From a virus (taxonomy: Duplodnaviria; Caudoviricetes), in the IMG/VR virus record IMGVR_UViG_3300018080_000186, positions 1 to 62,665 of that record: 62,665 bases of DNA, one strand, 5' to 3'. Positions within the stretch are counted from its first letter, which is position 1. Each line of letters starts with the position of its first letter. Shown piece after piece: positions 23,480 to 60,655 of the stretch. Made by a program: the position numbers and the translations under genes. The notes beneath the pieces are model-generated. The model saw only the letters and a program-made list of their open reading frames with translations. It had not been told where the DNA came from and did no database searches.

Positions 23480-23494
23480 TGGGAGCCGAACATG
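23480..23494 (+). promoter_or_regulatory. GGGAGCCGAACATG box over the RBS and start codon (copy 1)
   Basis: The same 12-mer occurs at 39043, 47773, 50217 and 50400. Confidence 0.8.
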
Positions 23495-35896: not shown

Positions 35897-35906
35897 TGGG
35901 GCTCTT

Positions 35907-36664: not shown

Positions 36665-36720
36665 TGGACATACCACGAGTCTTCATGCTACCTCTTCTGA
36701 AGGTGAAGGAGGGCCCATGG

Positions 36721-39042: not shown

Positions 39043-39056
39043 GGGAGCCGAACATG
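39043..39056 (+). promoter_or_regulatory. GGGAGCCGAACATG box over the RBS and start codon (copy 2)
   Basis: Exact 14-mer shared with 23481 and 47773. Confidence 0.8.
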
Positions 39057-39605: not shown

Positions 39606-41827
39606 CATGGACGAGCGCGAAGACATCATGAAGATGATCAATGACTCGAAGGGATCGTCGTGGGCCACCCTGGGGGCCCTCGGTTACGGAGCCGCCCTGC
39701 CGATGCTTATGGGAGGCCTGATGGGCAAGCTCGGAAGGATCAAGGAAGTGAAGCTCGTCTACGAGAAGATCTCTCTCAGCGCGTTCGATGACCGACACGT
39801 CATCGTGCTCATCGGGCCCGATTCCAGAGTCTGGGGTAGCCTGAGCACCCATGCCGTCGAGCAGCTCAAGCGCCAGCCCGGAGACGTCCTCAGGCTCGGT
39901 GAGGTGCCCGAGGAGGAGGAGAAGGACGAGGACACCCCCGAGGACGAGGAGCCCACTGAGCAGCCAGGGAGGGCCCCTGAGGAGGGCCCGGATATTGACG
40001 AGGGCACCGGCCTCGTCGGAGCCGGGAGAGGCAACTACTTCTACTGTCCGTTCTGCGGGAAGATGCTCGCTGGACCACGGAGGCGGGCCGATCACATCAG
40101 GAGGGAGCATGAATCCTTCCTGGACAAGTACCCCAAGATCAAGGCCGAGGTCGAGGAGATCCTGCACGGGAAGGATGAAGGATGAGTGGGGCATTCGGAC
40201 CCAGCATCATCGGTGGCGGCATGGGTGGGGGGCTTCGATGGCGCGATATCAGGACTGGGGTGCGTTGCATCCACTGCGGCAAGGGCGAGTTCCTGATCAG
40301 TCACGAGGCCAGTGACACAAGGTGGGGCGTGGACGGATACTACGTCACCTGCACCTTCAGCCCACGACAGGGGGCCATCTGCCCCTGGGTCGAGAAGACC
40401 GACTACCGAGGCTACCCGCTCACAGAGGAGCAGGCCAGATTTTTCATCCCCCACGAGGGCAACCCGGACGCCATGGCCTATCTGCTTAGGCAGTACTGCC
40501 CCGAGCTCCGCGATGCGGTCCTCGAGCAGTTCGACCCGCACAAGCATGACCCGTACCAGAGGGCAGCAGACAGGGCGGCCGACGAGGAGCACGTCGAGAA
40601 GCACAAGGGGAGGAAGAAGCTATGAGTGATGAGGCGAGAAGGTGGGCGGTGGCGAGCATGAAGGCGGGGGATCTCCTCAGCAAGTGGTTCTGGAAGCACC
40701 CACGAATCCTCAAGACAATCGCACCGAAGCTCCCCGAGATCATCGACGTGCTCAAGGCCGCAGACATCCAGAAGATCGAGGTCCTGCTCGAGCACGGGTG
40801 GAAGCAGTGAAGGCCTGGTATGCGGCCGCGGCCATCGCGATGATCGCAGGGGCCGTCTATGCGCTGTGGAAGATCGACTGGGAGTGGAGCCAGGAGCTCG
40901 CCCCGACCCTGGCCATGATGATCATCCTCGGGGTTCTCATGCTATTTGCCTGGGCCTCGGAGCACATTCTGGAACCATTCAAGAAACGGAAGGAGAAGAA
41001 CATGTCCGAAGGAGTCTACAAGCTGTTCGTCCCGTGCCCGAAGTGCGGGAAGCCCCACGGTGTCCGTCTCGTGGTGGACGAGTCCGAGTTCAGGGTTGTG
41101 TGCATCAGTTGCGAGGAGATGGATGAGAGCGTGGAGCTCGACCAGGTCCTCGAGACGGTGAGCACCCTGACGCTGGTGGCCCACGACGAGGGCCCCCTCG
41201 AGGAGCAGAAGGTGCAGGAGGTCGTGGCGGATCTGCTCGGGCTCCCGGAGGAGGAAGAATGAAGCTCTCGCAGGTGGTGGACCGTGTCATCAGGGCCATC
41301 GAGGAGCGCCTCGAGCCCGATCAGGCATACCAGACCACCATGCTCCGTGGCATGGCCGGACAGCTCATCAGGCAGTTCGGGGACCTGGAGCTCAACATCA
41401 TCGTGAAGCGGATCCCGCTCGAGGAGGTGCAGGATGGGGAAGCGGCGGAAAAGGACGAGAAGTAGGGCCCCTGCGATGGACCCTCAGGAGAGGGCCACCA
41501 ACCAGAGGGCCATCGGGATGCTCAAGCGCATCACCCGGCGACTGGGACGTGGACAGCAGATGCCGTTCCTGGTGGTCTCGGTGGAGCCTGGGAGGCACCC
41601 GACCACCGGGGAGGTCCGGGCCCTGCCCGCGATCCTCAGCACCAGGATGGAGCAGAAAAAGTCTGCGTTCCTGATCCAGGCCCTGTTCAGCCACCTGGCG
41701 GAGATCGGGGCCGTGAAGCCCAATCCTGGGCCCCAGGAGGCCGAGAAGGCCTCGGGGGTGGTCCAGGGTGCCCCCGACCCTTCCGGGGGCCTGGACACGA
41801 ACCTGGACGAGCCTGACGCGGACGTGG

Positions 41828-42658
41828 ATGGCGAGTAGCCCTGACCTGCAGGGCTTCGAGACCTGGCTGCGCCGTCGTCAACTCAGAGCTCTGACCATCA
41901 AGGCCTACGTGGCCTCGGTGAAGTTCGCCTACAAGCGGGGCAACCCGGTCAAGGCCCTGTCCGGGGCCAAGAGCCGGGGACGCCACACGCAGCTCCGCAG
42001 CGCCCTCAACCAGTACGCGAGGTTCTCCAAGAACGAGGCCATGCTCGAGGACATCCGGGCTGTTCAGAGACCCCGAACGAAGCGCAAGCCGGCCCGCAGG
42101 CCCCTGGACACCCAGGAGTGGAACGAACTGCTCCGGTCGGTGAAGATCGAGGAGGAGCCCATCTCACAGGCCCTCGTGCTCATCGTCCACACTGGACTGC
42201 GGAGCTCGGATGTGCTGAACATCGAGAGAAGCTACGCCGAGCAGGGCCTCGAGAACGGCATCCTGCAACTGGAGCAGAAGGGAGGGGACTACAGGCCCTT
42301 CCCCGTCGGCGGGGGCATGAGGACGGCCCTGCGCGAGCTCGTGGAGTACTGGGAATGGGAGAGGCTCCGGGACATCATCTCCGACGGTCAGAGCGACAAC
42401 GCCGCCTACATGGTCGTCTACCGCAAGCTCAAGAAGGCTGCGGAGAGGGCCGGGTTCGAGCCGGGGCGTGTCCACCCCCACCTGCTGCGGATCACTGCGG
42501 CCATCCAGCTCTACACCAGGACCAAGGACATCTGGGCGGTCAAGGAGTGGCTCGGGCACTCCGACATCGCCACGACCCAGATCTATCTAAGCAAGTACAC
42601 CAACCCCGACAACCTCATGGACTCGATGAGAGCCCTGCAAGAGGAGAGAGAGGAGTAG
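41828..42658 (+). CDS. Tyrosine recombinase (XerC/D-like integrase/resolvase)
   Basis: TGLR, K, HLLR and LGH....T..Y catalytic motifs. Short, with no arm-binding domain. Confidence 0.92.
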   Translation: MASSPDLQGFETWLRRRQLRALTIKAYVASVKFAYKRGNPVKALSGAKSRGRHTQLRSALNQYARFSKNEAMLEDIRAVQRPRTKRKPARRPLDTQEWNELLRSVKIEEEPISQALVLIVHTGLRSSDVLNIERSYAEQGLENGILQLEQKGGDYRPFPVGGGMRTALRELVEYWEWERLRDIISDGQSDNAAYMVVYRKLKKAAERAGFEPGRVHPHLLRITAAIQLYTRTKDIWAVKEWLGHSDIATTQIYLSKYTNPDNLMDSMRALQEEREE

Positions 42659-44149
42659 TCATGAAAAGGAAGCAGAACAGACTCTTCAGGCCGCCGATGA
42701 TCGGAAAGAAACAGCGGCTGCGGTTCGTCATCGGTCCCGACATGGAGATGGCCTGGCTCACTCGCGAGGAGCGCAAGGCCCTCAGCGACCACGGCCAGGA
42801 GGTCATGAACCAGCAGTACGAGGAGGACGCCGCCGAGAAGGCCGTGTTCGAGAAGTTCGAGTCCGAGCTCGAGGCGGCCGCCCGCGCCGAGATCAAGGAG
42901 CTGCTCAAGGACCCGGACACGATCAACGACAAGTGGCCCACCGAGGAGTTCGCTTACCTGCTGCACATCGCCGGCGGGTCGCCCCCGGATTCCTGCCACA
43001 CCTGGACGGGGGGCGACATGAACGAGTTCCGTCTCGCCCACACCCTCAGCGTGGAGATCCCCAAGGAGCTCGAGCCCGAGGCCATCGGCCTCATCAATCC
43101 CATCGATTTCCCGAACGCATTCGAAGATGTCACGAAGGGGATGAAGGCCCTGCTGGATCACTTCGGTCTCACCATCAAGGAGGAGGAATAGCCATGACCG
43201 AGACACTGTGGGCAAGGGTAGAGGAGCGCAAGAGGGGCAAGGCCCTCGTGCTCTACCGCAACGAACTGGTGAGCGGCCCGAGGGGCCCGATGGTCGAGGC
43301 ACGGACGGTGTTCGTGGTCGAGAAGATCGGGAAGTCCTTCGAGGCATTCGACGGCGAGGCCGCCTCGCTCGAGCTCACCTCCACCGAGGTCGGCGGCGAC
43401 ATCACCGTCAGCGCCACCATCAAGCACTCCGCGCAGGATCCCCGCGATCCCGAGATCCCGCGCATCGGGTTCGAGGACAAGGTGCCCGAGCACGAGGAGA
43501 AGAAGAAGAAGATCCGCAAGCGCGGGATGGGCAAGTTTTTGGGCAAGGACGACAAGAAGGCCGCCACGCAGAAGCCTGGCTCGCCCCCCGTCCCCCCCGA
43601 GCAGCGCCGTCGCGGAGCCTCCGGCCTCAGGGCCCCCACACGCCGTCGCAGGCCGAAGAGGTGATCCATGGAGCCAGTACGCAAGCAGCAGTACAAGGAG
43701 GCCCTGGAGCCCATCCTGGGCCCCGGAGACGTCGTCCTGGTCGTCTGCAACGACGACAGCCACACCCTGCTCTACGGGCAGGACTACAGGACCGCCTACG
43801 CGCAGGGCCAGTGGAGCCCCCGCTACACCGTCTGGTCGGTCCTGCTCGGGTTCAAGATCCTCGGAGAGCTTATCGGTGAGCACATGAAGGTCGTGTTCCC
43901 CGGCGAGAACCTCGACCCCATGACCATGGAGCTCACGCAAGAGCAGCTCGAGGTCCTGCAGAAGAGCCTCGCCTCGGGGTCGCTGATGCCCAACGAGACG
44001 TTCCCTCTCGTGGCGGCCGGCTTCCGTCAGCTCGCCCAGGCCCTCGAGGGTCACCTCGCATCCTGCGCCCCCAACGAGTACCGCCAGATGCAGGAGAACA
44101 TGAAGAAGCCGATCGAGAAACCCATGGGGGGTGAAAGGAGCGGGAACTG

Positions 44150-45151
44150 ATGGACAACCCATGGTTTCCCAAGGCTGGAACGGTCATCCTCTTGCTGTTC
44201 GTGATCACCATCATCGTCGCCCACTTCCCAGACTGCCCCGGCGATGCCCACGGAGAGGATGAGGTACCCACACACCACGAGCAGTGGTGCGAGAACATCG
44301 ACGGTTGGTGCCCCACCGTGACCAACGGAATCCACGCCGGCAAGAAGTGGTGCAACAGCCCGAAGAAGAAGTGTTACACTAGCCACCGCAACCGATCCTA
44401 CGACATCTACATGGCGCTGAAGGACTGGTTCAATCTCTACCCCTCGGGCAAGCACGGCCTCTTCAAGAGCGGGACGATCCGAACCGAGAGCGAGCTCACC
44501 TGGGACAGCAAGACCAGTTCGTCCACCGAGGAGTGCGGGATCGCCAGCGTCGACCGCTCCAAGGCCAAGAAGTGGAACATCAATGCCTGCGACCCAGAGG
44601 CCAACCTCTGGGCGGCGCAGTCCATGGACGCGAGCCGGCTCATCAGGATGCGAGAGAAATACCCGGAGCTCGAGCTCGCACCACTCTCCGACCAGTGGAA
44701 GATCGCAGGGGCCGGTGGGGCCATCGGCAGCAACAAGGTCTACAACCTCATCAAGGGATCCGGGGCCCTGCGCCTGAAGAAGGGCGAGGACATCCTCGTC
44801 TACAAGCACCCGCACGACCGGATCATGAAGTGGCTGGTGTGGAAGGATAAGAGCGACCCGTCCTTCTTCTACAACTTCATGGCCATCCCGCTGCTCGGAA
44901 AGAACCAGGGCAAGGGGGCGTTCCGCCTGGCCCGCTCAGAGGGACAGGAGAATCTATTCGAGGATCTCTTCGTCCATGGCCTCGAGAGCGCCTACGGAGA
45001 GCCCACGATGCCCGCAAGACCCCTGGGGGCCTACCCCTTCCCCGACAACGCCAAGCACCACTGCCAGTGCTGGAGATGGCCGGAACTGGCCGATGTGATG
45101 CCGACCCCGCACACGGTCGGCGTGGATGTCATCGATCCGAGATTGCTCTGA
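44150..45151 (+). CDS. Secreted or anchored lysozyme-fold (SLT-like) protein, endolysin candidate
   Basis: N-terminal hydrophobic signal; TES...ECGI.....ACDPEANL resembles the SLT motifs ES/GLMQ/DP.N. Confidence 0.5.
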   Translation: MDNPWFPKAGTVILLLFVITIIVAHFPDCPGDAHGEDEVPTHHEQWCENIDGWCPTVTNGIHAGKKWCNSPKKKCYTSHRNRSYDIYMALKDWFNLYPSGKHGLFKSGTIRTESELTWDSKTSSSTEECGIASVDRSKAKKWNINACDPEANLWAAQSMDASRLIRMREKYPELELAPLSDQWKIAGAGGAIGSNKVYNLIKGSGALRLKKGEDILVYKHPHDRIMKWLVWKDKSDPSFFYNFMAIPLLGKNQGKGAFRLARSEGQENLFEDLFVHGLESAYGEPTMPARPLGAYPFPDNAKHHCQCWRWPELADVMPTPHTVGVDVIDPRLL

Positions 45152-46090
45152 TGGCGTCGAAGGGCTGGGCATCCTGTCACCAGAACTGGGTGGACGCGAT
45201 GAAGAAGAACCGCGACCGCCGCACCATCGCGATCGTCTACACCGGGTTTACCCGGGCCCCCTACAGGATCTGGATGCTCGAGGACGACCGAGTCATCATG
45301 AGGGGCACGTTCCGATTCAGTGACCTGCAGCACGTCGTCAGCGCCGTGGACTCCATCTACCGGGCCGCGGGGATCACCGGCTACTACGCCACCAACATGC
45401 AATGAGGAGAAGAACCATGGAAGCCTATCTGTGCGACATCACAGTCCACGTCCGAAAGCGCGTCGGCCCCGGGGCTCTCCCCGACCACGATGCCATGCGT
45501 CAGTTCGACAAGGACGCGGTCGAGTTCGTCAAGAAGAGCCTCATCAAGGGAGGCTTCGTCAGCGGCGACAGGCTGCGCTTCGAGGTCGACCCCCTCACCT
45601 GCGCCGATGGTCTCATCCAGGTATCAGTGAAGATCGGGTCGGCGCCATGAAAGACCGAGACCACTACTGGGTCGTCGTGCCGAAGTCTCAGAAGCGTGAG
45701 CCGTTCATGCTCAAGGAGAAGAACGCCTCACGGGTTTGGGAGAGGATCCGCGAAGAGGTCGGGGGTGCCGAGATCGAAGACGTGATCCACCTATGCGATG
45801 TTCTGGATGCGAGGGATCTGGTTGAGAGTATTCGAGACTTCGGAAGGAGTCTTGGATTCAGGTCCGTTCAATGATGCCGCTCACCAGCAAGCAGAGGGTC
45901 TCCGTCCTCGAGAAGATGGATCCAGATCAGCGCCTCGAGACCTACGTCTCGATCAGGAATCGGGTGGACCGGAATCTCCAGCAGGATGTGGGGTATCACT
46001 TCAGCGACGAGTACGATCGATTGCTGGACGAGCTCCAGGACTACTGGACTGCCATGACGGAAGAGGAGCGCATCAAGGCGCAACGTCAGC

Positions 46091-47578
46091 TCACACGCTG
46101 AACGCCTCCTCCATCGTGACGGGCACCACGGTGGGGTGACCTCTCTCCTCGCGCACCGCATTCTCCTTCTCGATCTTGACGTAGTCCGGCTCGTAGCCAT
46201 GGGCGAAGAACGCCTGGTTCGGGGTCCAGACTCCGAGCTGGCCATCGGGCCGTGGCGTGGCCGCCCTCTCCTCGTCGGTCATCATGCACCAGCGGCACTT
46301 CTGGCATGTGGCGTAGACGCGGGGGTTGGTCGCGGAGCACTCGGTCGGGTCCCCGATCTCGGTGTGCAGAGATCCGCAGTGGTACCCGAACACGGTGGTG
46401 ACTCGGACCCGGTCCCCAAACTCGTCGCTGATGGCGTTGCGGAACGCGGCGAGGATCTTGTCCTGGGGCTCGGCGGTGGCGTAGCTGAGGTGGCCGTTCA
46501 TCTTCGAGGCCGCCTTCGCGAGCTGCTCGACGCTGTTGGGCCCACCACGATCCCTGCTCGTGGGCGTGGAGGGATCCAGGGAGAACTGCAGCCGCAGGTT
46601 GGGACGGGGCACGAGCTTCTCGGCCGTGTCCTTCTTCCTCGAGAACCCCCAGACGATGAGATCGGGGTGTCGCTCTGTCATCCTGTTCACGAGTCGGATG
46701 GTGCCCTTGTTGAAGTCGCCGCCGCCGTTCCAGCGGATGTTGAGCGGGGCGTCGAGGGGCAGACGCTTCGACCTCTCCCCCTTCTGCGTGAAGAACTTCT
46801 CCCTCACCTGCTCGTAGAACAGATCTGCCTGCTCGCTGATCTCGGCCGACGATGCGGTCGCGTACATCTCCGATACGATCAGGTTCTGCAGGTACCTGGC
46901 CTGCTGGCGGCTCAGGTTGTACCAGTGCTGCTCGTCCCATCCGACGAAGCGGCCGACCTTGGCGTAGCAGTGCTTCATGCACCACGCCGTGGGTCGGCAG
47001 GTTCCGCCGATCTCGGGGTGCAGACGTGCAACCGCGGCCATGGGCGACCTCGACGGGTCCTTCTTCTTCTGCTTGCCCTTGAACGTGGTCGCGAGGGCGC
47101 CGAGGTACTTCTGGATCCTGATGTTGAAGGAGAACCCGGTCTTGAAGTTGACCGAGAGGTACATCACCTTGTTCTGGATGTCCGAGATGACCTCCTTGGG
47201 GGCGTGGCGGATGATGGCCGGGAGCTTCTCGCGCCAGGACATCTCCTCGGCCCACTGCTCGTCCACGATCTGCTGGATGGCCGGATCGAGCCGGTAGTCG
47301 GCCCCGACCCGGACGTCACGGATGCTCGTCGTGGGGTCGAATGGGGACCCCGCCGGCTCCGCCTCGTTCTCGATCTCCCGGCCCTCGATGTCCAGGAGCT
47401 TCACCTTGGCTCCGTACCCCGGATCCACAGGCATCCATGGGTAGGGATCGTAGAAGTCCCCCAGGCCCGTGTACCCGGCCTCCTCCATCGCCTCAGCGGC
47501 CATCTCCGGGATCACGCACTGGTCGGGCGGGAACCACAGATCATCGGTGGGCTCTTCGACTACTCGTACTCCTGGCAT
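46091..47578 (-). CDS. GP88-family (radical-SAM-like) protein with an acidic N-terminal extension
   Basis: C....WC...CYA, RW..GGDF, W.FSR, N..L..SLD, C..C..C motifs; GGAGG RBS before the ATG at 47578. Confidence 0.75.
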   Translation of the reverse strand: MPGVRVVEEPTDDLWFPPDQCVIPEMAAEAMEEAGYTGLGDFYDPYPWMPVDPGYGAKVKLLDIEGREIENEAEPAGSPFDPTTSIRDVRVGADYRLDPAIQQIVDEQWAEEMSWREKLPAIIRHAPKEVISDIQNKVMYLSVNFKTGFSFNIRIQKYLGALATTFKGKQKKKDPSRSPMAAVARLHPEIGGTCRPTAWCMKHCYAKVGRFVGWDEQHWYNLSRQQARYLQNLIVSEMYATASSAEISEQADLFYEQVREKFFTQKGERSKRLPLDAPLNIRWNGGGDFNKGTIRLVNRMTERHPDLIVWGFSRKKDTAEKLVPRPNLRLQFSLDPSTPTSRDRGGPNSVEQLAKAASKMNGHLSYATAEPQDKILAAFRNAISDEFGDRVRVTTVFGYHCGSLHTEIGDPTECSATNPRVYATCQKCRWCMMTDEERAATPRPDGQLGVWTPNQAFFAHGYEPDYVKIEKENAVREERGHPTVVPVTMEEAFSV

Positions 47579-47600
47579 ATCGGTCACCTCCTGATCAGAA

Positions 47601-47630
47601 GGTATACCCGCAGGGGCCGCTCTATGTCCA
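47601..47630 (-). promoter_or_regulatory. Leftward promoter for the GP88-like gene
   Basis: TGGACA-N18-TATACC on the minus strand. Confidence 0.5.
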
Positions 47631-47772
47631 GACAGGACCGCCGAGGTGTGACGATGCCGACACCGATCCCTCGAAAAACTACCAATTATTTCCGCCGTGA
47701 TTTCAGACACTTCTCAGCCTATACAAGGTCGTTGGTTGAATAAAAAGGTGTGCATATGCGTTGATATGGGCA

Positions 47773-47786
47773 GGGAGCCGAACATG
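47773..47786 (+). promoter_or_regulatory. GGGAGCCGAACATG box over the RBS and start codon (copy 3)
   Basis: Exact 14-mer; marks the first gene after an AT-rich intergenic region. Confidence 0.8.
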
Positions 47787-47999
47787 AAGAAACCATCCGA
47801 CAAGTACATCATTGGAACGCCGGCACAGAGGCGGTGGCTTGATGCCGTGATCCGAGATGCCGTCTGGAGATGCAGCGACATGGAGCCGGACCACCGAAGG
47901 TACGCCGTCATGGCATGGCTCATGACCAGGGCTGAAATGCACCAGACGACGTTCACGGGTCTCGTGAAGGAGATCAAGGAGGAGAAGGAGAGATCATGA
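47784..47999 (+). CDS. Hypothetical protein, first gene of a small-ORF operon
   Basis: ATG lies within the box motif; followed by a coupled chain of small ORFs to 49533. Confidence 0.65.
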   Translation: MKKPSDKYIIGTPAQRRWLDAVIRDAVWRCSDMEPDHRRYAVMAWLMTRAEMHQTTFTGLVKEIKEEKERS

Positions 48000-49329
48000 T
48001 CTACACGAACGAGGATGCCAAGTTTGATGCAGAGGCGCAGGGACGCTGCCCCATCTGTGGAAGAACCCCCCTCGATGGATGCACCCACTGCGACATTTGC
48101 GGTGACCTTGACTGCGATGGGACATGCGAAGACTGGGACGAGGAGCAGGAGCAGGATCAGTCATGAAGATGTACAGACACCAGATCGAAGAACTGAAGTG
48201 GAGGCCCGGGTACGGTTACATGGGTCTGCTGATCGACTTCGCGGATCTCAACGGGGTCCAGTTCAAGCGAAAGACCGACGTGGCGGAGAAGCAGAGCACC
48301 TACTACTACCTCGCGCAGGATCCCCTCATTCGAACGCTGGCCAAGTGGCTGATGATCAAGGTGCTCGAAGACCCGAAGGAACCGTTCATCGAATACCCAG
48401 ACTGTGACAAGGAGGCGCGAGACTTCGAGCGTGAGTGCTGCCTGGATGAGGACACAGAAGAGGAGGGATCATGAAGGACTTCATTGTGTACGCGAATGGG
48501 CTCGTCCACTGCTCGGTCTGCTCGAGCCTCCCAGAGGAGGATGTTGTCCTGCGCGTCAACATCGCGAATCCGACGGGGGTCACTCCATGGAGGATCGTGG
48601 AGGAGAAGTTCAAGACCGGCGAACCGAACCCGTGTCCGTGCGACAAGTACCCGGACACGCACAAGCACTACCTGTTCACCTGCTGAAGGAGGGAGCCATG
48701 GGCTACGGAAGAGAGAAGGAATGGTACGAGATCCACCTCGAGCGTGGATGTCACTCGTGCTACTACGTGGACGAGAAGCAGCTCGACGTCGGGCCGTGCT
48801 GCACCTTCGTCGGCAAGCTCGGTGTCGACGCCAAGGGCACCTGCACGAAGAGGAAGATCAAGAAGGTGAAGTCATGAGGATCAAGAAGGCGGATCGTGGG
48901 GCAGTGGCAATCGTCCTGTCGGTTGCATATTACATTCTCATGTGTTCGTGGCCAATCGCCATCGCGAAACTTCTGCTTCCACAGGAACTGGAATGGATCA
49001 TGCTCCCCGTGTTCACCGTTTGCATTATCTACGGGTTGGCTGGCGCTGGTGTTGCAATGGCATGGGTTGAGGAGAAGCCATGAACCTCGAAACTGACACC
49101 CCGTGCGTGGCGACCGACCGTCACAACGTCGTGGAGCACGCCGTGAGGACTCGATCGGACGGGGTTCCCACCCAGTACCGGTTCTGCGCCCGCTGTGGGG
49201 CCGAGTGGTTCCTCGAGCAGCGAGATGGGGTCTGGGTCGTGGCCGCCCACGTCGGGCCCCAGGAGGACGCTGAGGAGGACGAGGACGAGTTCGGCGCCTG
49301 CCAGGGCGGCTTCGGGCAGGAGGGCGACG

Positions 49330-49533
49330 ATGACTGAAGATCGCGTGCCCTACGGCAACCAGAAGCGCGGTGCGAGCCGCATCCACCTCTACTACCCGAC
49401 CGAGGATCAGATGGAGCTCGCGGAGGCCGTCGAGCTCTCACCCTTCCGATCCGCCTCGGCCCTGGTCCGTCACCTCGTGCGCCAGTACCGTCGAGGCCAG
49501 CTCAACAAGATCAAGCGTTCCTGCAACTCCTGA
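49330..49533 (+). CDS. Ribbon-helix-helix-like regulator
   Basis: RIHLYY...QMEL......FRSASALVRHLV. Confidence 0.6.
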   Translation: MTEDRVPYGNQKRGASRIHLYYPTEDQMELAEAVELSPFRSASALVRHLVRQYRRGQLNKIKRSCNS

Positions 49534-49544
49534 CCCCCATGACA

Positions 49545-49695
49545 TAGCCGCGGTCGCGGGCCTGACATAGAACTGCCCCGGGGAGCGAGGTTGGGGGGGA
49601 CCTTCTCCTCCGGGGCATGGGGCCCTGGAGAACGCGGGGCGTCAGGCTCCCCAGGGCGCGACGGCCAACCACCTTCACCACCTACCCTACCGTCA
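49545..49695 (-). ncRNA. Candidate structured ncRNA with a pseudoknot
   Basis: Leftward TTGACA-N17-TATACC promoter (49730-49702); nested stems with minus-strand G:U pairs; no credible ORF. Confidence 0.55.
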
Positions 49696-49726
49696 AGACT
49701 AGGTATACCGAGGGTCGCAGGATCTG

Positions 49727-50095
49727 TCAACGGACGTGCGGACGGATGCCCTTGATCGCCTCCATCACATCGGCGTGGAAGCCTTTCTCCATTCGGTGAG
49801 CTGTGTTGCTGATGACCGAGATCAACTTCGAGCGGATCTCGGCGTAGGCGGCGAGCATGGCCCTCATCTCGGGGCTGACCTTCTCACCGAGGCCGAAGTG
49901 GAGGAGGAACCGGGCGGCCTCTGAGCGGTTTCCCACGACGGCCTGGCCCTCGCACTTCGGGCAGGTGGAGCCGTCGCTGAGAACGGTGTCACCCTGACAC
50001 TTCGGGCAATCCTGTGGGAATTCTTGAACTGCGAAGGCCTCGAGATCGGCCAGGAGCTCTTCGTGTACCTTGACGGTCAGCGGATACGTCTTCAC
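49727..50095 (-). CDS. RHH-like regulator with an inserted zinc ribbon
   Basis: YPLTVKVHEELLADLE [CPKC...CPKC] NRSEAARFLL; GGGAGG RBS; TTGCCA-N18-TAGGGT promoter. Confidence 0.65.
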   Translation of the reverse strand: MKTYPLTVKVHEELLADLEAFAVQEFPQDCPKCQGDTVLSDGSTCPKCEGQAVVGNRSEAARFLLHFGLGEKVSPEMRAMLAAYAEIRSKLISVISNTAHRMEKGFHADVMEAIKGIRPHVR

Positions 50096-50159
50096 CCACG
50101 CCTCCCAGTGCCCCGTGGAGCACCCTATCACCCGCTGCACTTGAATGGCAAGTTGACGA

Positions 50160-50270
50160 CACACCTCCCCCAACTGGAGCAAGGGGAGGCTGACCATGCT
50201 GTAGTTGCATGTCGGTGGGAGCCGAACACGCGGGCCGACCCCCGAAGGGGCGGTACAGGTGGGTCACCTG
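50160..50270 (-). ncRNA. Candidate antisense sRNA complementary to the GGGAGCCGAACA boxes
   Basis: Minus strand: C(UUCG)G hairpin (50253-50235), seed CGUGUUCGGCUCCCA (50230-50216), terminal GCCUCCCC/GGGGAGGU hairpin (50190-50163); TTGACA at 50300-50295. Confidence 0.6.
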
Positions 50271-50397
50271 GGTTGTCCCACGAGAGGATCCTGGTGTCAA
50301 GCAAGGTCGCTGAATCACAGCCTGAAATGGCCGTTGTGGCCGTTGCTTCGTCATTTTTCTGGACGGATGTCACAGGGGTGTGCTACAGATCGTGACC

Positions 50398-50595
50398 ATG
50401 GGAGCCGAACAGTTCGTGGATGCGAGGACACTTGCCGATCGCCTGGGTCTCTCGACCCGCACCATCTACACCTACGTCAGCGAGGGGAGGATCCCCTTCA
50501 TCAGGCTCCGTCACAGCCCCGTGCCACGATATAGGTTCAACATCACGGAAGTGATCGAACACCTGAGAGGAGAAAGTCATGAACGCACCAAGTGA
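50398..50595 (+). CDS. Excisionase/Cro-like HTH protein; first gene of the replication operon
   Basis: LA.RLGLS.RTIY.YV.EGRIP..R.....YRF pattern; begins with the box motif (50400-50411). Confidence 0.8.
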   Translation: MGAEQFVDARTLADRLGLSTRTIYTYVSEGRIPFIRLRHSPVPRYRFNITEVIEHLRGESHERTK

Positions 50596-51547
50596 GAGCC
50601 AGCAGGATCCGAAGGTCGAGCTCGTGGCTGCAATGCCCGACCGTCCTGACCCCGACGATCTTCACATGAGGATCATCCGCTCGGCCAAGAACATGAAGCA
50701 GCTCGTGGAGGCGTACAAGATGGTACGCACCCATGTGCTCGACATGACGGAGCCCGACGACTGGATGATCCACGGACAGGATGGAGACCCGGATCCCAGG
50801 GTCTACCTCTGCGCCGACGGCGCCATCAGGATCGGACTCGGCCTCGGCGTTCAGTGGGGCGGCTTCAAGCAGGAGAGGATCGAGCACCAGGACTCCAACG
50901 GAGCCTTCTACGAGATCGTGACCACGGCCCACTTCATGTACTGCGGCCGCTACATCGAGGCGACCGGCTCCGCGGACACCCGCGACAGCTTCTTCTCCCA
51001 TCAGGGCCAGCTCGACAGCGACGATGTCGACATCCAGAACATCCGCTACAAGAGCGAGACGGCGTGCGTGCGCCGTGGCATCTCGGCCGTGCTCGCGCTG
51101 CGTGGGCTTCGAGTCTCCCACCTGCCCGATTCGATGAAGAGCCGTGTCCTCGGCAACACCGTCGGGTACGTGAAGGGCAACAAGGGCGGCAGCATCCAGG
51201 AGAAGGGTGAGCGCGAGCTCGCGGTGAAGTGCTGGAATGCCTGCATCACCATGTGCGGCGGCGACGTGGATGTCGCGACCAAACTGCTCGAGACGGTCAC
51301 CAAGTTCAAGGGCGACGACGGCGACGTCTGGGTGAAGGGTCCCGAGCACCTCAAGAAGATCAAGAGCGGCTGGCTGCAGCGCGTGAAGAACGATCTCGAG
51401 AAGGAGTGGCGGATGTGGAACGAGAAGGGCGCCATCCCCTACGTCATGGCCGACTTCGAGGCACCCCCCGAGGAGGGCCAGGGCGATGGTGGCGCTGACG
51501 GTGAGCCGAGCTCCGAGGAGCCCCCAGTCCAGAATCCGCTCGGGTGA
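50579..51547 (+). CDS. Putative single-strand annealing protein (Rad52/ERF-like)
   Basis: L..DGA.RI...G, G.A..RD.FF, N..K..T....R.I motifs; acidic tail; adjacent to an exonuclease. Confidence 0.55.
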   Translation: MNAPSESQQDPKVELVAAMPDRPDPDDLHMRIIRSAKNMKQLVEAYKMVRTHVLDMTEPDDWMIHGQDGDPDPRVYLCADGAIRIGLGLGVQWGGFKQERIEHQDSNGAFYEIVTTAHFMYCGRYIEATGSADTRDSFFSHQGQLDSDDVDIQNIRYKSETACVRRGISAVLALRGLRVSHLPDSMKSRVLGNTVGYVKGNKGGSIQEKGERELAVKCWNACITMCGGDVDVATKLLETVTKFKGDDGDVWVKGPEHLKKIKSGWLQRVKNDLEKEWRMWNEKGAIPYVMADFEAPPEEGQGDGGADGEPSSEEPPVQNPLG

Positions 51548-51550
51548 TCC

Positions 51551-52573
51551 ATGGAGACACTGGGGATCGCCAAGAGGCTGGATGAGGAAGCGAAGGGCCG
51601 GATCAAGATCTGGCCGGCGAAGTCGAACCGGGCCTCCTCGCTCGGCCGGCCCTGCATCCGCTACCACGTCCTGAGACGGACCAGGTGGAACGAGATGCGG
51701 GCCCACGACCTCGGACTGCAGCGGGTCTTCGATGAGGGAGTGGCGCAGGAGAAGATCGTCCTGCAGCGCCTCATGGCCATCGGCGTCGAGGTGCTCGAGC
51801 AGCAGCGTGCGTTCCGGGTGCCGCCACGGTGTCAGGGGTGCGGTCACTTCCGCGACATGTTCCAGACCACGGCCGCGTGCCCCGAGTGCGGCACCGACGA
51901 CTGGTACGACTACCAGATCACCGGCCACATCGACGGCATGGTGGACGACGGGATGGGCTACCACATTCCCCTTGAGATCAAGAGCATGAGCCCGTGGGCG
52001 TTCAACACCCTCTACTCCGCCGAGGACCTTGTGGAGACCATGCTCGCCGGCCCTCCGCACCACCAGACCTACCCGCCGCAGCTCCTGCTCTACATGAAGT
52101 TCACCGGCAAGCCTCGGGGCGCGTGGCTCTTCAAGGAGAAATTGGCGGGCCGACATCACGATCCCGTGATCTACCTCTCCCCCCACGAGCACATCATCGA
52201 GGGGCTGCTCGACAAGGCCCGGGTCATCAATGATCACATCGAGCAGAAGACCGAACCGGATCCTATCAACGACTACTCGATCTGCTCGGCGTGTGGGTTC
52301 AACCACATCTGCCTGCCTGGCCATGAGGGCAAGCAGGCGATCATGGACGCGGAGCTCGAGTGGTACGTGGATGAGAAGCGCAAGCGCGAGGATAGCATTC
52401 GCGATGTGAAGGCCGAGATCCGGGCCCTCGAGGACGAGATCAAGGAGAGAACGAAGGGGCGCGAGGAGATGATCATCAGCGGCAAGTACCGCTGTGTACC
52501 TCGCACCGTGAACGTGAAGCCTCGAGAGGGGTACTCCTACACCAAGTACGAATTTCAGAACGCGACAGAGTAA
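51551..52573 (+). CDS. Cas4-like PD-(D/E)xK exonuclease with a zinc-ribbon insert
   Basis: RASSLG.PC.R, GHIDG, EIKS, Q..LY, C..C....IC motifs. Confidence 0.8.
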   Translation: METLGIAKRLDEEAKGRIKIWPAKSNRASSLGRPCIRYHVLRRTRWNEMRAHDLGLQRVFDEGVAQEKIVLQRLMAIGVEVLEQQRAFRVPPRCQGCGHFRDMFQTTAACPECGTDDWYDYQITGHIDGMVDDGMGYHIPLEIKSMSPWAFNTLYSAEDLVETMLAGPPHHQTYPPQLLLYMKFTGKPRGAWLFKEKLAGRHHDPVIYLSPHEHIIEGLLDKARVINDHIEQKTEPDPINDYSICSACGFNHICLPGHEGKQAIMDAELEWYVDEKRKREDSIRDVKAEIRALEDEIKERTKGREEMIISGKYRCVPRTVNVKPREGYSYTKYEFQNATE

Positions 52574-52577
52574 CCAC

Positions 52578-52622
52578 GACCGAGGGCCCTGCGGGAACTG
52601 CCTCCCTCGAGGGCCCTCGGTC
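52578..52622 (+). promoter_or_regulatory. Intergenic 13-bp hairpin
   Basis: GACCGAGGGCCCT / AGGGCCCTCGGTC. Confidence 0.6.
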
Positions 52623-52639
52623 ACAACATGGAGGACGAC

Positions 52640-52840
52640 ATGGCAAAGGACAACGGAAAGAAGAGCAAGACCTTCCGCAGCAAGGAGCAGATCGCATTCG
52701 AGCACGGGCGCCAGCTCATGAACTACTGCGTCGGTGCCGGGAAGTGGGACTGGGTCGAGCAGCTCACCCCGATTATCAAGGACCTCGCGCCGAGCGACCA
52801 GGCCGATCCGCAGAAGGAGCTCGCCGTCGATCCGCAGTAG
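52640..52840 (+). CDS. Hypothetical protein
   Basis: GGAGG RBS. Confidence 0.6.
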   Translation: MAKDNGKKSKTFRSKEQIAFEHGRQLMNYCVGAGKWDWVEQLTPIIKDLAPSDQADPQKELAVDPQ

Positions 52841-52889
52841 TCGGTTGACAGCGGCCGAGGGCCGTGAGAGTCTGGTTCTGCCACGAACG

Positions 52890-52998
52890 ATCTGGGAGCA
52901 CTCATGAGATCATCTACATTTTCGACCATCCGGTGGGGCCCCGTGGGGGTTTCCCAGATACCCCGTGGCCGCGGGGTCCCACCGGGTGGCCGAGGAGG
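52890..52998 (+). promoter_or_regulatory. Structured leader of the replication initiator gene (25-bp stem plus loop pseudoknot)
   Basis: 52922-52946 pairs with 52969-52993. Loop TTCCCAGAT (52951-52959) is complementary to ATCTGGGAG (52890-52898). Confidence 0.65.
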
Positions 52999-53004
52999 TG
53001 GGTG

Positions 53005-53892
53005 ATGGGGCGGTGGATCCGAGTCGACGTTCTCGTCCACGACAACCCGAAGGTCGTGGCTGCCGGATTCTGGGGAATGACGGTCATCCAGGCCGCCTGG
53101 AGGATGAGCAAGGCTCACGATCTCGACGGTGAGCTCTCCGACCGCCACTGGACCCCCCAGATGCTGCTGAGATGGACCCTGGCGACCCCAGATCAGCTCG
53201 AGGACATCCAGGACGGGATGGCGGCCTGCATCAGCGAGGGGCTGGTGGAAACCGTTACGCGTAACGACCGTAACGCATTTCAGCTACACGATTGGGACGA
53301 CTACCAGAAGGATCCGACGGCCGCCGAGAGGATGAGAAGATACCGAGAGCGAAAGAAGAAGGAGAAGAAATCTAACGTAAGTGCCCGAAAACTCGATCCA
53401 GCACCCCCCGTTACGCGTAACGGCCGTAACGTTACGCTACAGGACATGACAGGACAAGACAGAAGAATGGATGAGAGGGGACGCTCTTCTCGTATGGAGA
53501 GATCTGATTCGACAGCATTGTCAGAATCGAATGAGCATAGAGACAGCAGTATCGAGAGTAGTGATCGTAGCGCCCCCTTGGTCTGGGACCTGTGGCCCAT
53601 CTACATCGAGTTTTACAATGAGTCGAAAGGTGTCCCGCCTGCCACAAGCTCCTCCACACAGACCCAACTTGAGAAACTCTACGACTACATCGGCCAGATC
53701 ATGGATCAGGAGCAGGTGTCCTCTGCGGACGAGGATGATCGACACCAGAAGACTCTCATGTTCGCGAGGGCCGTCCTGAAAAAGTACTTCGAGAGCGATG
53801 ATGAGTTCGTGGTCAACAAGGCCGAGTTCTCCCTGGCCTACTTCGTGAGCAACGCGATGCCATCTCTTGCCAGCAAGGTTCTTGGGAAATGA
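53005..53892 (+). CDS. Phage replication initiator / replisome organizer
   Basis: WI.VD....NPK, DG.L, HDW..YQ..T.AER.RRYRE motifs; directly upstream of DnaB. Confidence 0.75.
   Translation: MGRWIRVDVLVHDNPKVVAAGFWGMTVIQAAWRMSKAHDLDGELSDRHWTPQMLLRWTLATPDQLEDIQDGMAACISEGLVETVTRNDRNAFQLHDWDDYQKDPTAAERMRRYRERKKKEKKSNVSARKLDPAPPVTRNGRNVTLQDMTGQDRRMDERGRSSRMERSDSTALSESNEHRDSSIESSDRSAPLVWDLWPIYIEFYNESKGVPPATSSSTQTQLEKLYDYIGQIMDQEQVSSADEDDRHQKTLMFARAVLKKYFESDDEFVVNKAEFSLAYFVSNAMPSLASKVLGK
53253..53465. repeat. Iteron-like palindromes, putative replication origin
   Basis: CGTTACGCGTAACG (53253-53266), CCGTTACGCGTAACGG (53408-53423), CGTAACGTTACG (53425-53436), then 5-bp ACAnG repeats. Confidence 0.65.
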
Positions 53893-59206: not shown

Positions 59207-59898
59207 GCACGAAGAAGGATTCAGTCATGTTGTGCTTCGCGCCGATGCACAACACGAAGAACCGTCGGGACGCGAACGAGTTCCAGCGCCAGGCCGCCTA
59301 CTTCCTGGACTACCACAACCAGGACATGGGGATGCTGGTGCTCGTGGACAACAAGCAGTCGAAGTCGCGGATGCGAAAGACGGTGTACGATGCCATCGAG
59401 GAGTACTGCGGCGGACAGATCTGCTCGGTCCACTTCTTCTGCCACGGGTACCGCAAGGGGATCCAGTTCGGATTCACGACGAGGAACCTCGAGCTGCTCG
59501 CCAGAAAGATCTGGGCCGCAACGAGTTCGGCGCCAATCGTGACCTTCTATTCCTGCGACGTGGGACGTGACGCTGATCGCAACCGCCAGGACGACCTGCA
59601 GACCATCGGTGGCGACGGCGGGTTCTGCGACGAGTTCCGCGACGAGCTCTGTCGAGTGGGCGCAGTCAACTGCAGGGTCGATGGGCACACCACGGCGGGT
59701 CACACGACCAGGAATCCCCACGTCCGCCGCTTCAACGGTGCCGGCTCGATGACCGGCGGCCTGGGCGGCTTCTACCTCGTGTCGCGGGGCAAGAAGGATC
59801 TCTGGAAGATCTGGCGACAGGAGCTCACTGGTGACTACCGCTTCGAGTACCCGTTCCAGACCGAGAACGAGATCATCGACTACCTGAAGAGCCTCTGA
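59203..59898 (+). CDS. Putative caspase-fold (clan CD, C80/DUF4347-like) cysteine peptidase
   Basis: His-Cys dyad pattern VHFFCHG ... VTFYSC. Confidence 0.55.
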   Translation: MSTKKDSVMLCFAPMHNTKNRRDANEFQRQAAYFLDYHNQDMGMLVLVDNKQSKSRMRKTVYDAIEEYCGGQICSVHFFCHGYRKGIQFGFTTRNLELLARKIWAATSSAPIVTFYSCDVGRDADRNRQDDLQTIGGDGGFCDEFRDELCRVGAVNCRVDGHTTAGHTTRNPHVRRFNGAGSMTGGLGGFYLVSRGKKDLWKIWRQELTGDYRFEYPFQTENEIIDYLKSL

Positions 59899-60022
59899 CT
59901 TCCCTCTTTGAGGCCTGAAAAGCCCATCTCGCAAGACCCCTGTCAAGTACGAATTTGGGGGTGGTATACCTTAAGGTAAGACGGTCCCGGCCCGACCGGC
60001 ATTCCGAAAACCCGTGGTATAG

Positions 60023-60655
60023 ATGCCTTGTATGTCGGGAGCGGTATCCACAGACACGCAAGTGGCAGGCTACTCAATCGTCGGAGACGACGACCGGGTA
60101 GAGCTCATCCGTCAGATGGTCTTCGAGAGCATCAAGGACCCGCTTGTGCTCTGGACCGCTCGACACATCACAGCGAAGTGCCAAGGGCGCGACGATCACT
60201 GCGAACTGGAAGCCTTGTACGAGGCCGTCAAGAAGGGTCCGATACCTCTGCCCGATGGGGACAGCGGGAAGGTGATCGAGACACCCGGATTGAGGTTCGT
60301 CAACGACCCGCGATTCACGGACACCTACCCTACCGCGGGGAAGATCCTGAGGTGGCAGGCGCAGGGGGCGAACGGGGAGGACTGCGACGGCCACACGATC
60401 TTGGTCGATGCGATGCTCAACGCACTGGGCTGGCTCACGGGCGGGGTGATCGCGAGCAAGGACGGCAACGAGTTCGTCCATGTGTTCCCGGTCGCCGGCT
60501 ACCCCAAGGATGAACCGACCGAGTGGATCCCGATGGACACCACGGTGAAGGAGGCGAGTGTAGGTTGGTGGCCGCCCAAGACCCTCGTGAGGCGCATGAG
60601 GATCTACGGATTCCTGCCAAACTTCCAGGCGAAGGGAAGGGAGCTCAGACTATGA
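60023..60655 (+). CDS. Transglutaminase-like cysteine protease, putative maturation protease
   Basis: V....RF..DP, DCDG (catalytic Cys), HVF (His), W.PMD.T (Asp). Confidence 0.8.
   Translation: MPCMSGAVSTDTQVAGYSIVGDDDRVELIRQMVFESIKDPLVLWTARHITAKCQGRDDHCELEALYEAVKKGPIPLPDGDSGKVIETPGLRFVNDPRFTDTYPTAGKILRWQAQGANGEDCDGHTILVDAMLNALGWLTGGVIASKDGNEFVHVFPVAGYPKDEPTEWIPMDTTVKEASVGWWPPKTLVRRMRIYGFLPNFQAKGRELRL

What the first reader, a model, noticed from the sequence alone, without database searches (positions are those of the whole stretch)
50160..50411. Candidate multi-target antisense-RNA switch: one sRNA complementary to four translation starts across the genome
Seen: I found GGGAGCCGAACA five times on the + strand. 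At 23481, 39043 and 47773 it reads GGGAGCCGAACATG, i.e. SD plus start codon. At 50400 it covers the start of the HTH gene that opens the replication operon. Three of these four genes are the first gene after an intergenic/promoter region. The fifth copy (50217) is intergenic and has ACG instead of ATG. Its minus strand reads as a C(UUCG)G hairpin, then CGUGUUCGGCUCCCA, then a small hairpin, then a GCCUCCCC/GGGGAGGU hairpin whose G:U closure works only on the minus strand. A leftward TTGACA lies at 50300-50295 (its -10 is weak, so the 5' end is uncertain), and the downstream RHH gene has its own promoter. This RNA would pair over 13-15 nt with each target, using a G:U wobble opposite the U of AUG in three of them. 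Known: phage P1/P7 C4 and P4 CI RNAs give RNA-based immunity, but act on nearby targets in their own immunity operon. Inference: with no CI-type repressor visible, this virus may silence its early operons in trans with a single sRNA.
Basis: partly seen in the sequence, partly recalled or inferred. Interest (0 to 1): 0.92.

Follow-up and report, generated by a model that had tools for sequence, protein, structure and literature searches.

The report
Shared gene-start tag with mirror hairpin
An uncultured 62.7-kb virus puts one identical 12-letter ribosome-site tag at the start of four operon-leading genes and keeps a fifth, gene-less copy inside a hairpin that, if read leftward, would give a small RNA able to pair with all four; this is plausible but unproven.

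Summary
GGGAGCCGAACA occurs 5 times, all exact and all on the + strand. No copy has one mismatch. After 170 GGGAG sites, 0.014 such spacers are expected.

Three copies are SD plus 7 nt plus ATG. One overlaps the start of the HTH_17 gene. One (50217) is non-coding.

The leftward neighbour gene really starts at GTG 50095. So 50096-50397 is a roughly 300-bp regulatory gap.

New support for the RNA reading:
- On the minus strand the orphan copy folds into a 9-bp stem with the anti-SD CUCCCA in its loop. Only 1.7% of random flanks fold as well.
- The 108-nt unit is unusually stable on the minus strand only (z -2.47 against -0.75).

Against it: the -10 is poor, there is no U-tail, and I found no relatives and no Rfam match.

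A DNA operator or a protein reader remains possible.

The closest known kind is the start-associated sequences (SAS) of Cluster K mycobacteriophages, whose role is still unknown.

Earlier unchecked notes of this scan report the same tag-plus-mirror-hairpin pattern in at least 8 other phage genomes.

Verdict: a new variant of a known kind, with the antisense mechanism at about 0.4.

The parts
23481..23492 (+). Tag copy 1: SD GGGAG + CCGAAC + A of ATG 23492. First gene (104 aa) after a 278-bp non-coding gap.
   Evidence: the product has a winged-helix-like model in the Atlas (lead only)
39043..39054 (+). Tag copy 2: the same 14-mer up to ATG 39054 (183-aa gene), after a 144-bp gap.
47773..47784 (+). 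Tag copy 3: the same 14-mer up to ATG 47784 (71-aa gene). First gene of the rightward small-gene block, divergent from the leftward GP88-like gene.
50400..50411 (+). Tag copy 5, in the translation-initiation region of the HTH_17 gene. ATG 50398 overlaps its first G; the alternative start GTG 50416 lies 11 nt after the SD.
50217..50228 (+). Orphan tag copy, followed by CG, with no start codon and no credible ORF. Its minus strand reads UGUUCGGCUCCC, the anti-tag.
50207..50231 (-). Anti-tag hairpin 5'-GCGUGUUCGG/CUCCCA/CCGACAUGC-3': 9 pairs, one bulged U, one G.U (an A.C mismatch on the + strand), with the anti-SD CUCCCA in the loop.
   Evidence: (-16.8 kcal/mol on minus, -13.3 on plus; 1.7% of 3000 random genomic flanks fold as well)
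50235..50253 (-). Hairpin with a C(UUCG)G tetraloop on the minus strand (the loop is CGAA on the + strand).
50163..50190 (-). Last hairpin GCCUCCCC...GGGGGAGGU with a G.U closing pair on the minus strand only. It is followed by GUGUGUCGUC, not a U-tract.
   Evidence: (no terminator-like site reported here)
50155..50264 (-). Candidate leftward RNA of about 100-110 nt (ends inferred, not shown): closing stem, UUCG hairpin, anti-tag hairpin, last hairpin.
   Evidence: (z -2.47; 3 of 200 shuffles as stable) against for the + strand (z -0.75; 38 of 200)
50295..50300 (-). TTGACA, the possible -35 for the candidate RNA. The hexamer 17 nt downstream is GACAAC, a poor -10.
   Evidence: it did not pass the promoter scans
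50122..50151 (-). Own promoter of the leftward gene: TTGCCA-18-TAGGGT. It shares the 9-mer GATAGGGTG with the leftward promoter at 23440-23412.
49727..50095 (-). Leftward 122-aa zinc-ribbon protein in the cI position. The true start is GTG 50095, preceded by GGGAGG 5 nt upstream. The RHH-like reading is by eye only.
   Evidence: six homologues start here; DnaJ/Anti-TRAP-type zinc ribbon, weak; fold search did not confirm RHH
50398..50595 (+). HTH_17 (Xis/MerR-type) gene opening the rightward block: a Cas4-like exonuclease, a replication-initiator-like protein and DnaB.
50328..50345 (.). Perfect tandem repeat TGGCCGTTG x2 between the divergent units. It is a candidate protein operator that does not involve the 12-mer.
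   Evidence: D7

Best explanation
The 12-mer is a private translation-start tag of the SAS kind. It supplies the Shine-Dalgarno sequence and the exact spacer of three operon-leading genes, and it overlaps the initiation region of a fourth, the HTH_17 gene at the head of the replication block.

The fifth copy is not a gene start. It lies in the roughly 300-bp divergent control region, inside a minus-strand-specific set of stem-loops.

The most likely reading is that this region is transcribed leftward. The product would be either a small RNA of about 100 nt or the distal leader of the zinc-ribbon gene. The CUCCCA loop would first meet the GGGAG of each tag. Pairing would then spread through UGUUCGG, giving 12-15 bp that cover SD and AUG, keep the 30S subunit off, and so shut four early units down together.

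Shown: the copies, their positions, the hairpin, the strand asymmetry and the complementarity. Inferred: transcription, the ends of the RNA, the pairing in vivo, and its repressive effect.
For: - Five exact copies and none with one mismatch. The SD-matched expectation is 0.014.
- Three of five copies are in the identical register, ending on the A of ATG. This ties the tag to translation starts rather than to promoters. No shared upstream motif lies at a fixed distance.
- The orphan copy has no ORF. The neighbouring gene starts at 50095, so the orphan lies in non-coding DNA.
- The anti-tag forms a hairpin with the anti-SD in its loop. It is stronger on the minus strand (-16.8 against -13.3 kcal/mol), and only 1.7% of 3000 random-flank controls match it.
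- The 108-nt unit gives z = -2.47 on the minus strand against -0.75 on the plus strand.
- The tags at the four starts are 63-80% unpaired in local folds.
- The four starts rank 1-4 of 95 start regions for duplex energy with the seed: -30.1 to -26.9, next -24.4, median -16.8. This ranking follows from how the seed was chosen.
- A separate tandem repeat in the same gap could serve as the protein operator.
- C-rich loops that bind G-rich mRNA sites without chaperones are an established mechanism in high-GC bacteria (abstract of PMC6486639).
Against: - No transcript evidence of any kind.
- The -35 TTGACA has a poor -10, GACAAC, and no scan called a promoter there.
- The last hairpin lacks a U-tract.
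- No Rfam family matches.
- No related genome could be found, so co-variation is untested.
- Seven of the 12 anti-tag bases are in a stem, so pairing needs strand invasion.
- Complementarity is automatic for any orphan copy and is not evidence in itself.
- In the best-known analogue the support is mixed. Cluster K phage Krueger keeps 14 exact SAS, but the apical loop of the corresponding hairpin is not their complement.
- Five exact 12-mers would suit a sequence-specific DNA-binding protein just as well.
Confidence: 0.4

Rival explanations
1. The 12-mer is a double-stranded DNA operator of the stoperator kind. A phage regulator that binds an asymmetric site as a monomer sits on all five copies. 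The HTH_17 protein, the 104-aa winged-helix-like protein or another protein could play this role. It would block RNA polymerase just downstream of four rightward promoters and in the leader region of the leftward unit.
For: - Five exact copies of an asymmetric 12-mer, two of them 183 bp apart and flanking the divergent control region.
- All four start-site copies follow non-coding gaps of 144-300 bp where promoters are expected.
- Small DNA-binding candidates are encoded right there.
- Monomeric repressors that read asymmetric sites scattered over a phage genome are known (title and abstract of PMC9283540).
Against: - Three copies share the exact register with ATG and include the SD. An operator has no need for that.
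- No conserved promoter element lies at a fixed distance upstream.
- A different perfect tandem repeat in the same gap is a more conventional operator.
- An operator does not explain the minus-strand bias of the structure around the orphan copy.
- No homologue of a stoperator-type repressor was seen among the 20 proteins scanned. The other roughly 75 were not scanned.
Confidence: 0.22
2. The tag is a translation signal read on the mRNA by the ribosome together with a protein. This could be a phage or host RNA-binding activator or repressor, as T4 RegA represses many early messages (recalled, not checked here). The orphan copy would be a relic of a lost gene start (ATG to ACG) or a decoy, and the hairpins would belong to the promoter/terminator region.
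For: - The position and the ATG preference match the SAS, for which a role in translation initiation was proposed (passages of PMC3203893).
- The tag contains an SD at the optimal 7-nt spacing.
- ACG differs from ATG by one transition.
- An ASCH/DUF3850 predicted RNA-binding protein is encoded at 28615-29439.
Against: - A relic would be expected to decay, yet 12 of 12 bases are intact and no copy with one mismatch exists anywhere.
- The spacer CCGAACA has no obvious partner in the 16S 3' tail (my reading, with the tail recalled from memory).
- This reading predicts neither the local inverted repeat centred on the SD of the orphan copy nor the strand asymmetry.
Confidence: 0.2
3. There is no common function. 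The copies spread by short-patch recombination or duplication of a good ribosome site, and the orphan copy and its hairpin are accidents.
For: - There are only five copies.
- The flanks are unrelated.
- An 8-mer TGACCATG also recurs beside copies 4 and 5 (D13), which hints at an old local duplication.
Against: - The SD-matched expectation is 0.014 against 5 observed.
- The identity has abrupt edges and there are no decayed copies.
- About 7 repeated 8-mers are expected by chance in 950 bp (my estimate), so D13 carries little weight.
Confidence: 0.06

Closest known systems
Start-associated sequences (SAS) of Cluster K mycobacteriophages (Pope et al. 2011, PMC3203893; passages read)
   Same: Both are short asymmetric repeats that are mostly exact, in one orientation, lie immediately before start codons, contain the SD, prefer ATG, and sit outside the structural genes. 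K1 phages also have one extra copy that is not at a gene start. The role is still called unknown in 2024-2025 (passages of PMC11373665 and PMC12699233). Both motifs contain GGAGCC.
   Different: There are 5 copies here against 11-19. The sequence is different. The tag runs right into the ATG instead of stopping 3-7 bp before it. No ESAS-like inverted repeats lie upstream. The extra copy is co-oriented and would have to be read leftward, whereas in K1 phages it is inverted. The host and the virus type are unknown.
C-rich-loop sRNAs of high-GC Gram-positive bacteria (6C/B11; abstract of PMC6486639). RsaE and RNAIII of Staphylococcus are recalled only.
   Same: A C-rich hairpin loop meets G-rich, SD-like mRNA sites of several targets, and G-C pairing is enough without a chaperone. 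This is what the candidate RNA would work like.
   Different: Those are chromosomal RNAs with short, imperfect seeds and host targets. Here the match is 12-15 nt, exact, and aimed at the virus's own gene starts. There is no sequence relation (no Rfam match).
P1/P7 C4 and P4 CI immunity RNAs
   Same: A phage-encoded antisense RNA silences phage early functions by pairing at or near ribosome sites or leader sites.
   Different: Those RNAs are cut out of the leader of the same transcript that they control and act on one operon. Here the source would be on the opposite strand, and the targets are four separate units up to 27 kb away. No Rfam family reached its gathering score anywhere in the window.
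Stoperators of Cluster A mycobacteriophages (PMC9283540, title and abstract from the search listing)
   Same: An asymmetric site of 12-13 bp is scattered over the genome in one orientation, and this could silence several units at once.
   Different: Stoperators number in the tens and are not locked to the start codon. A dedicated monomeric repressor is known for them, and none has been identified here.

Membership tests
SAS-type start-associated repeat | Short asymmetric repeat, mostly exact, many copies, far above chance | tested here: met
   5 of 5 copies are exact against 0.47 expected. The SD-matched expectation is 0.014. The copy number is lower than the 11-19 of Cluster K.
SAS-type start-associated repeat | Immediately upstream of start codons, contains the SD, prefers ATG | tested here: met
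   3 of 5 copies abut ATG, 1 of 5 overlaps a start region and 1 of 5 is an orphan.
SAS-type start-associated repeat | One orientation only | tested here: met
   5 forward and 0 reverse copies.
SAS-type start-associated repeat | Conserved at corresponding genes across related phages | not testable with these tools
SAS-type start-associated repeat | Sequence GGGATAGGAGCCC (membership of the Cluster K family itself) | tested here: not met
   The motif is different and shares only GGAGCC. It is therefore an analogue, not a member.
Trans-acting antisense sRNA | A transcript of the proposed strand exists | not testable with these tools
Trans-acting antisense sRNA | Own promoter and terminator | tested here: inconclusive
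   TTGACA has a poor -10. No promoter or terminator was called there. The terminal hairpin is strong but has no U-tract.
Trans-acting antisense sRNA | Stable structure specific to the transcribed strand | tested here: met
   z is -2.47 on the minus strand against -0.75 on the plus strand. The local hairpin gives -16.8 against -13.3 kcal/mol.
Trans-acting antisense sRNA | Seed exposed in a loop or single strand | tested here: inconclusive
   CUCCCA is in the loop with unpaired probability near 1. UGUUCGG is in the stem. The mean over the 12 bases is 0.50.
Trans-acting antisense sRNA | Seed and targets co-vary in relatives | not testable with these tools
   No relatives were found. The contigs of runs X2 and X3 are identical to the window where listed.
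P1/P7 C4 or P4 CI RNA family | Sequence and structure match to the curated family | tested here: not met
   No Rfam family reached its gathering score in the window.
P1/P7 C4 or P4 CI RNA family | RNA processed from the leader of the operon it controls | tested here: not met
   The candidate lies on the strand opposite to all four targets.
Stoperator system | Dedicated repressor that binds the asymmetric site | not tested
   Only 20 of about 95 proteins were scanned.
Ribbon-helix-helix regulator (the leftward 122-aa protein) | RHH fold or family match | tested here: inconclusive
   Pfam gives only a weak zinc-ribbon match below its cut-off. The PDB profile finds DnaJ/Anti-TRAP at E 1e-4. The model has pLDDT 74 and its best fold matches are Anti-TRAP at E 0.15; an RHH protein appears only at E 5. 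The RHH label rests on reading the sequence by eye.

The most novel reading that the evidence does not exclude
One small leftward RNA displays the mirror image of a private ribosome-site tag in a hairpin. It acts as the master translational switch of four separate operon-leading genes, two of which are probable DNA-binding regulators. That would amount to RNA-based immunity or timing spread over 27 kb of an uncultured, possibly temperate virus. The same logic (tag plus one mirror hairpin) may then be what start-associated sequences are for in general.
Probability: 0.35. Interest if true: 0.75.

Novelty: new variant of a known kind. Interest (0 to 1): 0.5.

Why it matters
Start-associated sequences have been known in mycobacteriophages since 2011, and papers of 2024 and 2025 still call their role undefined.

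This virus offers a minimal case: four targets and one orphan copy. The orphan copy sits in a strand-specific hairpin that displays the anti-Shine-Dalgarno sequence. That turns the open question 'RNA or protein reader?' into a simple experiment with four reporter fusions, one RNA and compensatory mutations.

If the RNA reading holds, a virus can gang-switch dispersed operons at the level of translation with a single short RNA. That would be a compact regulatory design, and useful for synthetic control of several genes.

If it fails, the tag is still a clean new example of an SAS-like element outside the actinobacteriophage collections.

Tried and rejected
Relatives
- The phage collection gave no blastn match.
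- IMG/VR scans with four proteins or alignments found no relatives.
- The exact 14-mer in IMG/VR gave only single-copy chance hits.
- The 322-aa neighbour protein has no relative but itself among 5.8 billion proteins.
- The metagenome protein scan found nothing.
- The metagenome two-copy DNA pattern gave 5 stretches, all unrelated tandem repeats of other organisms.
- The genome-contig scan gave 3 loci. The one I inspected (L122) is host DnaJ, so these look like false relatives.
- The zinc-ribbon protein has 6 homologues at 41-54% identity, on short Logan or ENA contigs of 0.8-9.7 kb.

Expression
- No RNA holder was listed for the region. This says nothing either way.
- Laying the contigs of X1-X3 showed that X2 and X3 carry fragments identical to the window where listed, so they give no variation. 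The listed pieces of X2 and X3 do not cover 50217 or 50400.

Other checks
- Rfam gave no match and there are no tRNAs.
- The first duplex ranking, with the whole 108-nt RNA, gave uninterpretable energies. I replaced it by a 19-nt seed.
- I rejected the idea that ATG 50197 starts the leftward gene, which would have put the last hairpin inside coding sequence.
- I rejected a + strand ORF through the orphan copy. The 109-aa frame overlaps the HTH gene out of frame and has no start behind the tag.
- I found no promoter motif shared upstream of the tags.
- The fold search did not confirm an RHH fold for the 122-aa protein.

Cluster K analogy
- The reverse SAS of Anaya lies in the apical loop of a conserved hairpin with compensatory changes.
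- Only 4 of the 9 aligned phages have that loop. I chose those 9 out of 182 records.
- Krueger keeps 14 exact SAS with a non-complementary loop.
- The analogy therefore supports the idea only weakly.

Literature
- The two-term search 'start-associated sequence' + 'antisense' found one paper, which uses the word in another sense.
- Supplementary files were not opened and may hold SAS tables that I did not see.
Full report
WHAT THE WINDOW IS. The window is a complete virus record of 62,665 bp with direct terminal repeats and 62.8% G+C. Nearly all genes lie on the + strand. The leftward genes that matter here are 46091-47578 (GP88-like) and 49727-50095. The record encodes a tyrosine recombinase (41768-42658), DnaB, a Cas4-like exonuclease and a replication-initiator-like protein. 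It may therefore be temperate. The sequence holds no tRNA and matches no Rfam family.

THE OBSERVATION.
- GGGAGCCGAACA occurs five times, always exact and always on the + strand.
- There is no copy with one mismatch, and only six sites have two mismatches. The family therefore has sharp edges.
- GGGAG occurs 170 times on the + strand, and 0.014 of these are expected to be followed by CCGAACA. Five are (Poisson P about 4e-12).
- Of 15 rough gene starts with GGGAG upstream, three share this spacer and the other twelve all differ.
- Copies 1-3 read GGGAGCCGAACATG. The last A of the tag is the A of the start codon, in the same register each time.
- The copy at 50400 starts with the G of ATG 50398 of an HTH_17 gene. 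An in-frame GTG follows at 50416, so the tag lies inside that initiation region either way.
- All four genes follow non-coding gaps of about 144 to 300 bp.

THE ORPHAN COPY.
- The ORF list offers ATG 50197 as the start of the leftward gene. That would put part of the region into coding sequence.
- A full HMMER search found 8 relatives. Six of them begin where residue 36 of that ORF aligns, and the alignment starts at an invariant M.
- GTG 50095 has GGGAGG five bases upstream.
- The gene is therefore 49727-50095 (122 aa), and 50096-50397 is non-coding.
- It has its own promoter-like site, TTGCCA-18-TAGGGT at 50151-50122. This is one of only five such sites in the genome, three of which are leftward and intergenic.
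- The orphan copy at 50217 has no start codon behind it and no credible ORF on either strand.

STRUCTURE AROUND THE ORPHAN COPY.
It folds as GCGUGUUCGG / CUCCCA / CCGACAUGC: nine pairs with one bulge and one G.U, with the anti-Shine-Dalgarno CUCCCA in the loop.
- The local fold is -16.8 kcal/mol on the minus strand and -13.3 on the plus strand, where the G.U becomes A.C. With the anti-tag kept and flanks drawn at random from the genome, the mean is -9.2 (sd 3.4), and 1.7% of 3000 trials reach the observed value.
- The 108 nt from 50262 to 50155 form a closing stem, a C(UUCG)G hairpin, the anti-tag hairpin and a 9-pair terminal hairpin. On the minus strand z = -2.47, with 3 of 200 shuffles as stable. 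On the plus strand z = -0.75, with 38 of 200.
- The tags at the four gene starts are mostly unpaired in local folds, at 0.63-0.80.
- With a 19-nt seed, the four starts give the four best duplexes of 95 start regions. That ranking follows from the way the seed was chosen. The fifth best is gene 61928, whose GGGGGCCGAG would pair with two G.U.

WHAT IS MISSING.
- The only -35-like element upstream, TTGACA at 50300-50295, is followed by GACAAC at the -10 position. No scan called a promoter there.
- The terminal hairpin is followed by GUGUGUCGUC rather than a U-tract.
- No relatives could be obtained by any route (see Tried and rejected). Neither conservation nor co-variation can therefore be judged.

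PROTEIN REGULATORS ARE PRESENT.
- The leftward protein has a DnaJ/Anti-TRAP-type zinc ribbon, though the matches are weak. By eye it has an RHH-like strand-helix ... helix pattern, which the model and the fold search did not confirm.
- The rightward block opens with an HTH_17 protein.
- The 104-aa product behind tag 1 resembles winged-helix proteins in the Atlas. This is a lead only.
- A perfect tandem repeat, TGGCCGTTG x2, lies between the divergent units.
A protein that reads the 12-mer, as DNA or as RNA, stays possible.

WEIGHING THE READINGS.
- The fixed register with ATG in three copies and the built-in SD tie the tag to translation starts. This speaks against a pure DNA operator.
- The two copies that are not SD-ATG units, and the complete absence of decayed copies, speak against a mere strong ribosome site.
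- That leaves a specific reader of the 12-mer: an RNA or a protein.
- The RNA reading predicts the orphan copy's strand-biased hairpin with the anti-SD in its loop. The other readings do not.
- I put the antisense RNA at 0.40, a DNA operator at 0.22, an mRNA-level protein or ribosome signal with a relic or decoy copy at 0.20, and no common function at 0.06. The rest is unassigned.

COMPARISON WITH WHAT IS KNOWN.
- The closest kind is the start-associated sequences of Cluster K mycobacteriophages. These are 13 bp, in 11-19 copies, lie 3-7 bp before mostly ATG starts, have one orientation and contain the SD. The role was still called undefined in 2024 and 2025 (passages).
- The present tag is an analogue of the SAS, not a member. 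The sequence differs and shares only GGAGCC.
- Mechanistically the candidate RNA would work like the C-rich-loop sRNAs of high-GC bacteria (abstract of PMC6486639). It differs from P1/P7 C4 and P4 CI, which come from the leader of the operon they control (recalled). No Rfam family reached its gathering score anywhere in the window.
- Among the papers that can be searched, I found none that links SAS to an antisense RNA.

A SIDE CHECK IN CLUSTER K.
- Pope et al. note one reverse SAS that is not at a gene start in K1 phages.
- In Anaya it lies in a 385-bp non-coding gap that is conserved in 182 records.
- I aligned nine phages of my own choice. RNAalifold places the site in the apical loop of a long hairpin, and five pairs of that hairpin show compensatory changes. 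An invariant TAGACT lies upstream.
- Only 4 of the 9 carry the near-complement of the SAS in the loop. Three have other C/U-rich loops, one lacks the loop and one has an unrelated loop.
- Krueger keeps 14 exact SAS without a complementary loop.
- The analogy is suggestive but does not establish an anti-SAS RNA.

EARLIER NOTES OF THIS SCAN. Unchecked AI notes report the same pattern, a shared start tag plus one mirror-image hairpin or small RNA, in at least eight other phage genomes. One of them claims co-variation. I did not test these and do not count them as evidence. They do mean that this finding is not unique within the scan.

VERDICT. The element is a new variant of a known kind (an SAS-like tag). 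The antisense mechanism is the single most likely reading, but it is unproven. Interest is 0.5.

Noticed in passing
L124 37683-38067 (Mycobacterium phage Anaya, record about 59682-60066); alignment A3: The single reverse-oriented SAS of K1 phages lies in the apical loop of a long hairpin with compensatory changes. The hairpin sits in a non-coding gap conserved in 182 Cluster K records, downstream of an invariant TAGACT. Only 4 of the 9 aligned phages carry the anti-SAS loop, and Krueger keeps 14 exact SAS without it.
   Followed up: partly
window 50328-50345: A perfect tandem repeat TGGCCGTTG x2 lies between the divergent leftward and rightward units. It is a candidate operator for one of the small DNA-binding proteins.
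   Followed up: no
window 23412-23440 and 50122-50151 (minus strand): Two leftward promoter-like sites (TTGACC-17-TAGGGT and TTGCCA-18-TAGGGT) share the 9-mer GATAGGGTG. A third leftward site lies at 36387-36358. No comparable site precedes any rightward operon, so rightward transcription may need a phage factor.
   Followed up: partly
window 49727-50095 (minus strand): The 122-aa protein belongs to a rare family, with 8 hits at E up to 0.001 among 1.84 billion representatives. A DnaJ/Anti-TRAP-type zinc ribbon appears to be inserted between two helices of an RHH-like frame. The fold search did not confirm RHH.
   Followed up: partly
window 53253-53266 and 53409-53422: The palindrome CGTTACGCGTAACG occurs twice, 156 bp apart, inside the replication-initiator-like gene (52864-53892). 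It may mark an origin within the initiator gene.
   Followed up: no
window 61911-61930: The start region of gene 61928 (GGGGGCCGAGAAGCGATG) would pair with the anti-tag over 10 nt with two G.U pairs. It is the fifth best of 95 start regions and may be chance.
   Followed up: no
window 23492-23806: The product of the first tagged gene has an Atlas model (pLDDT 0.70) that resembles winged-helix proteins such as DsrD and Penicillinase_R-like (TM 0.56-0.72). It may be a regulator.
   Followed up: no
window 33000-52900: Two further public DNA runs, from a sediment and a seawater metagenome of other studies, hold low-depth fragments identical to this virus. The virus therefore occurs in more than one sample.
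   Followed up: partly
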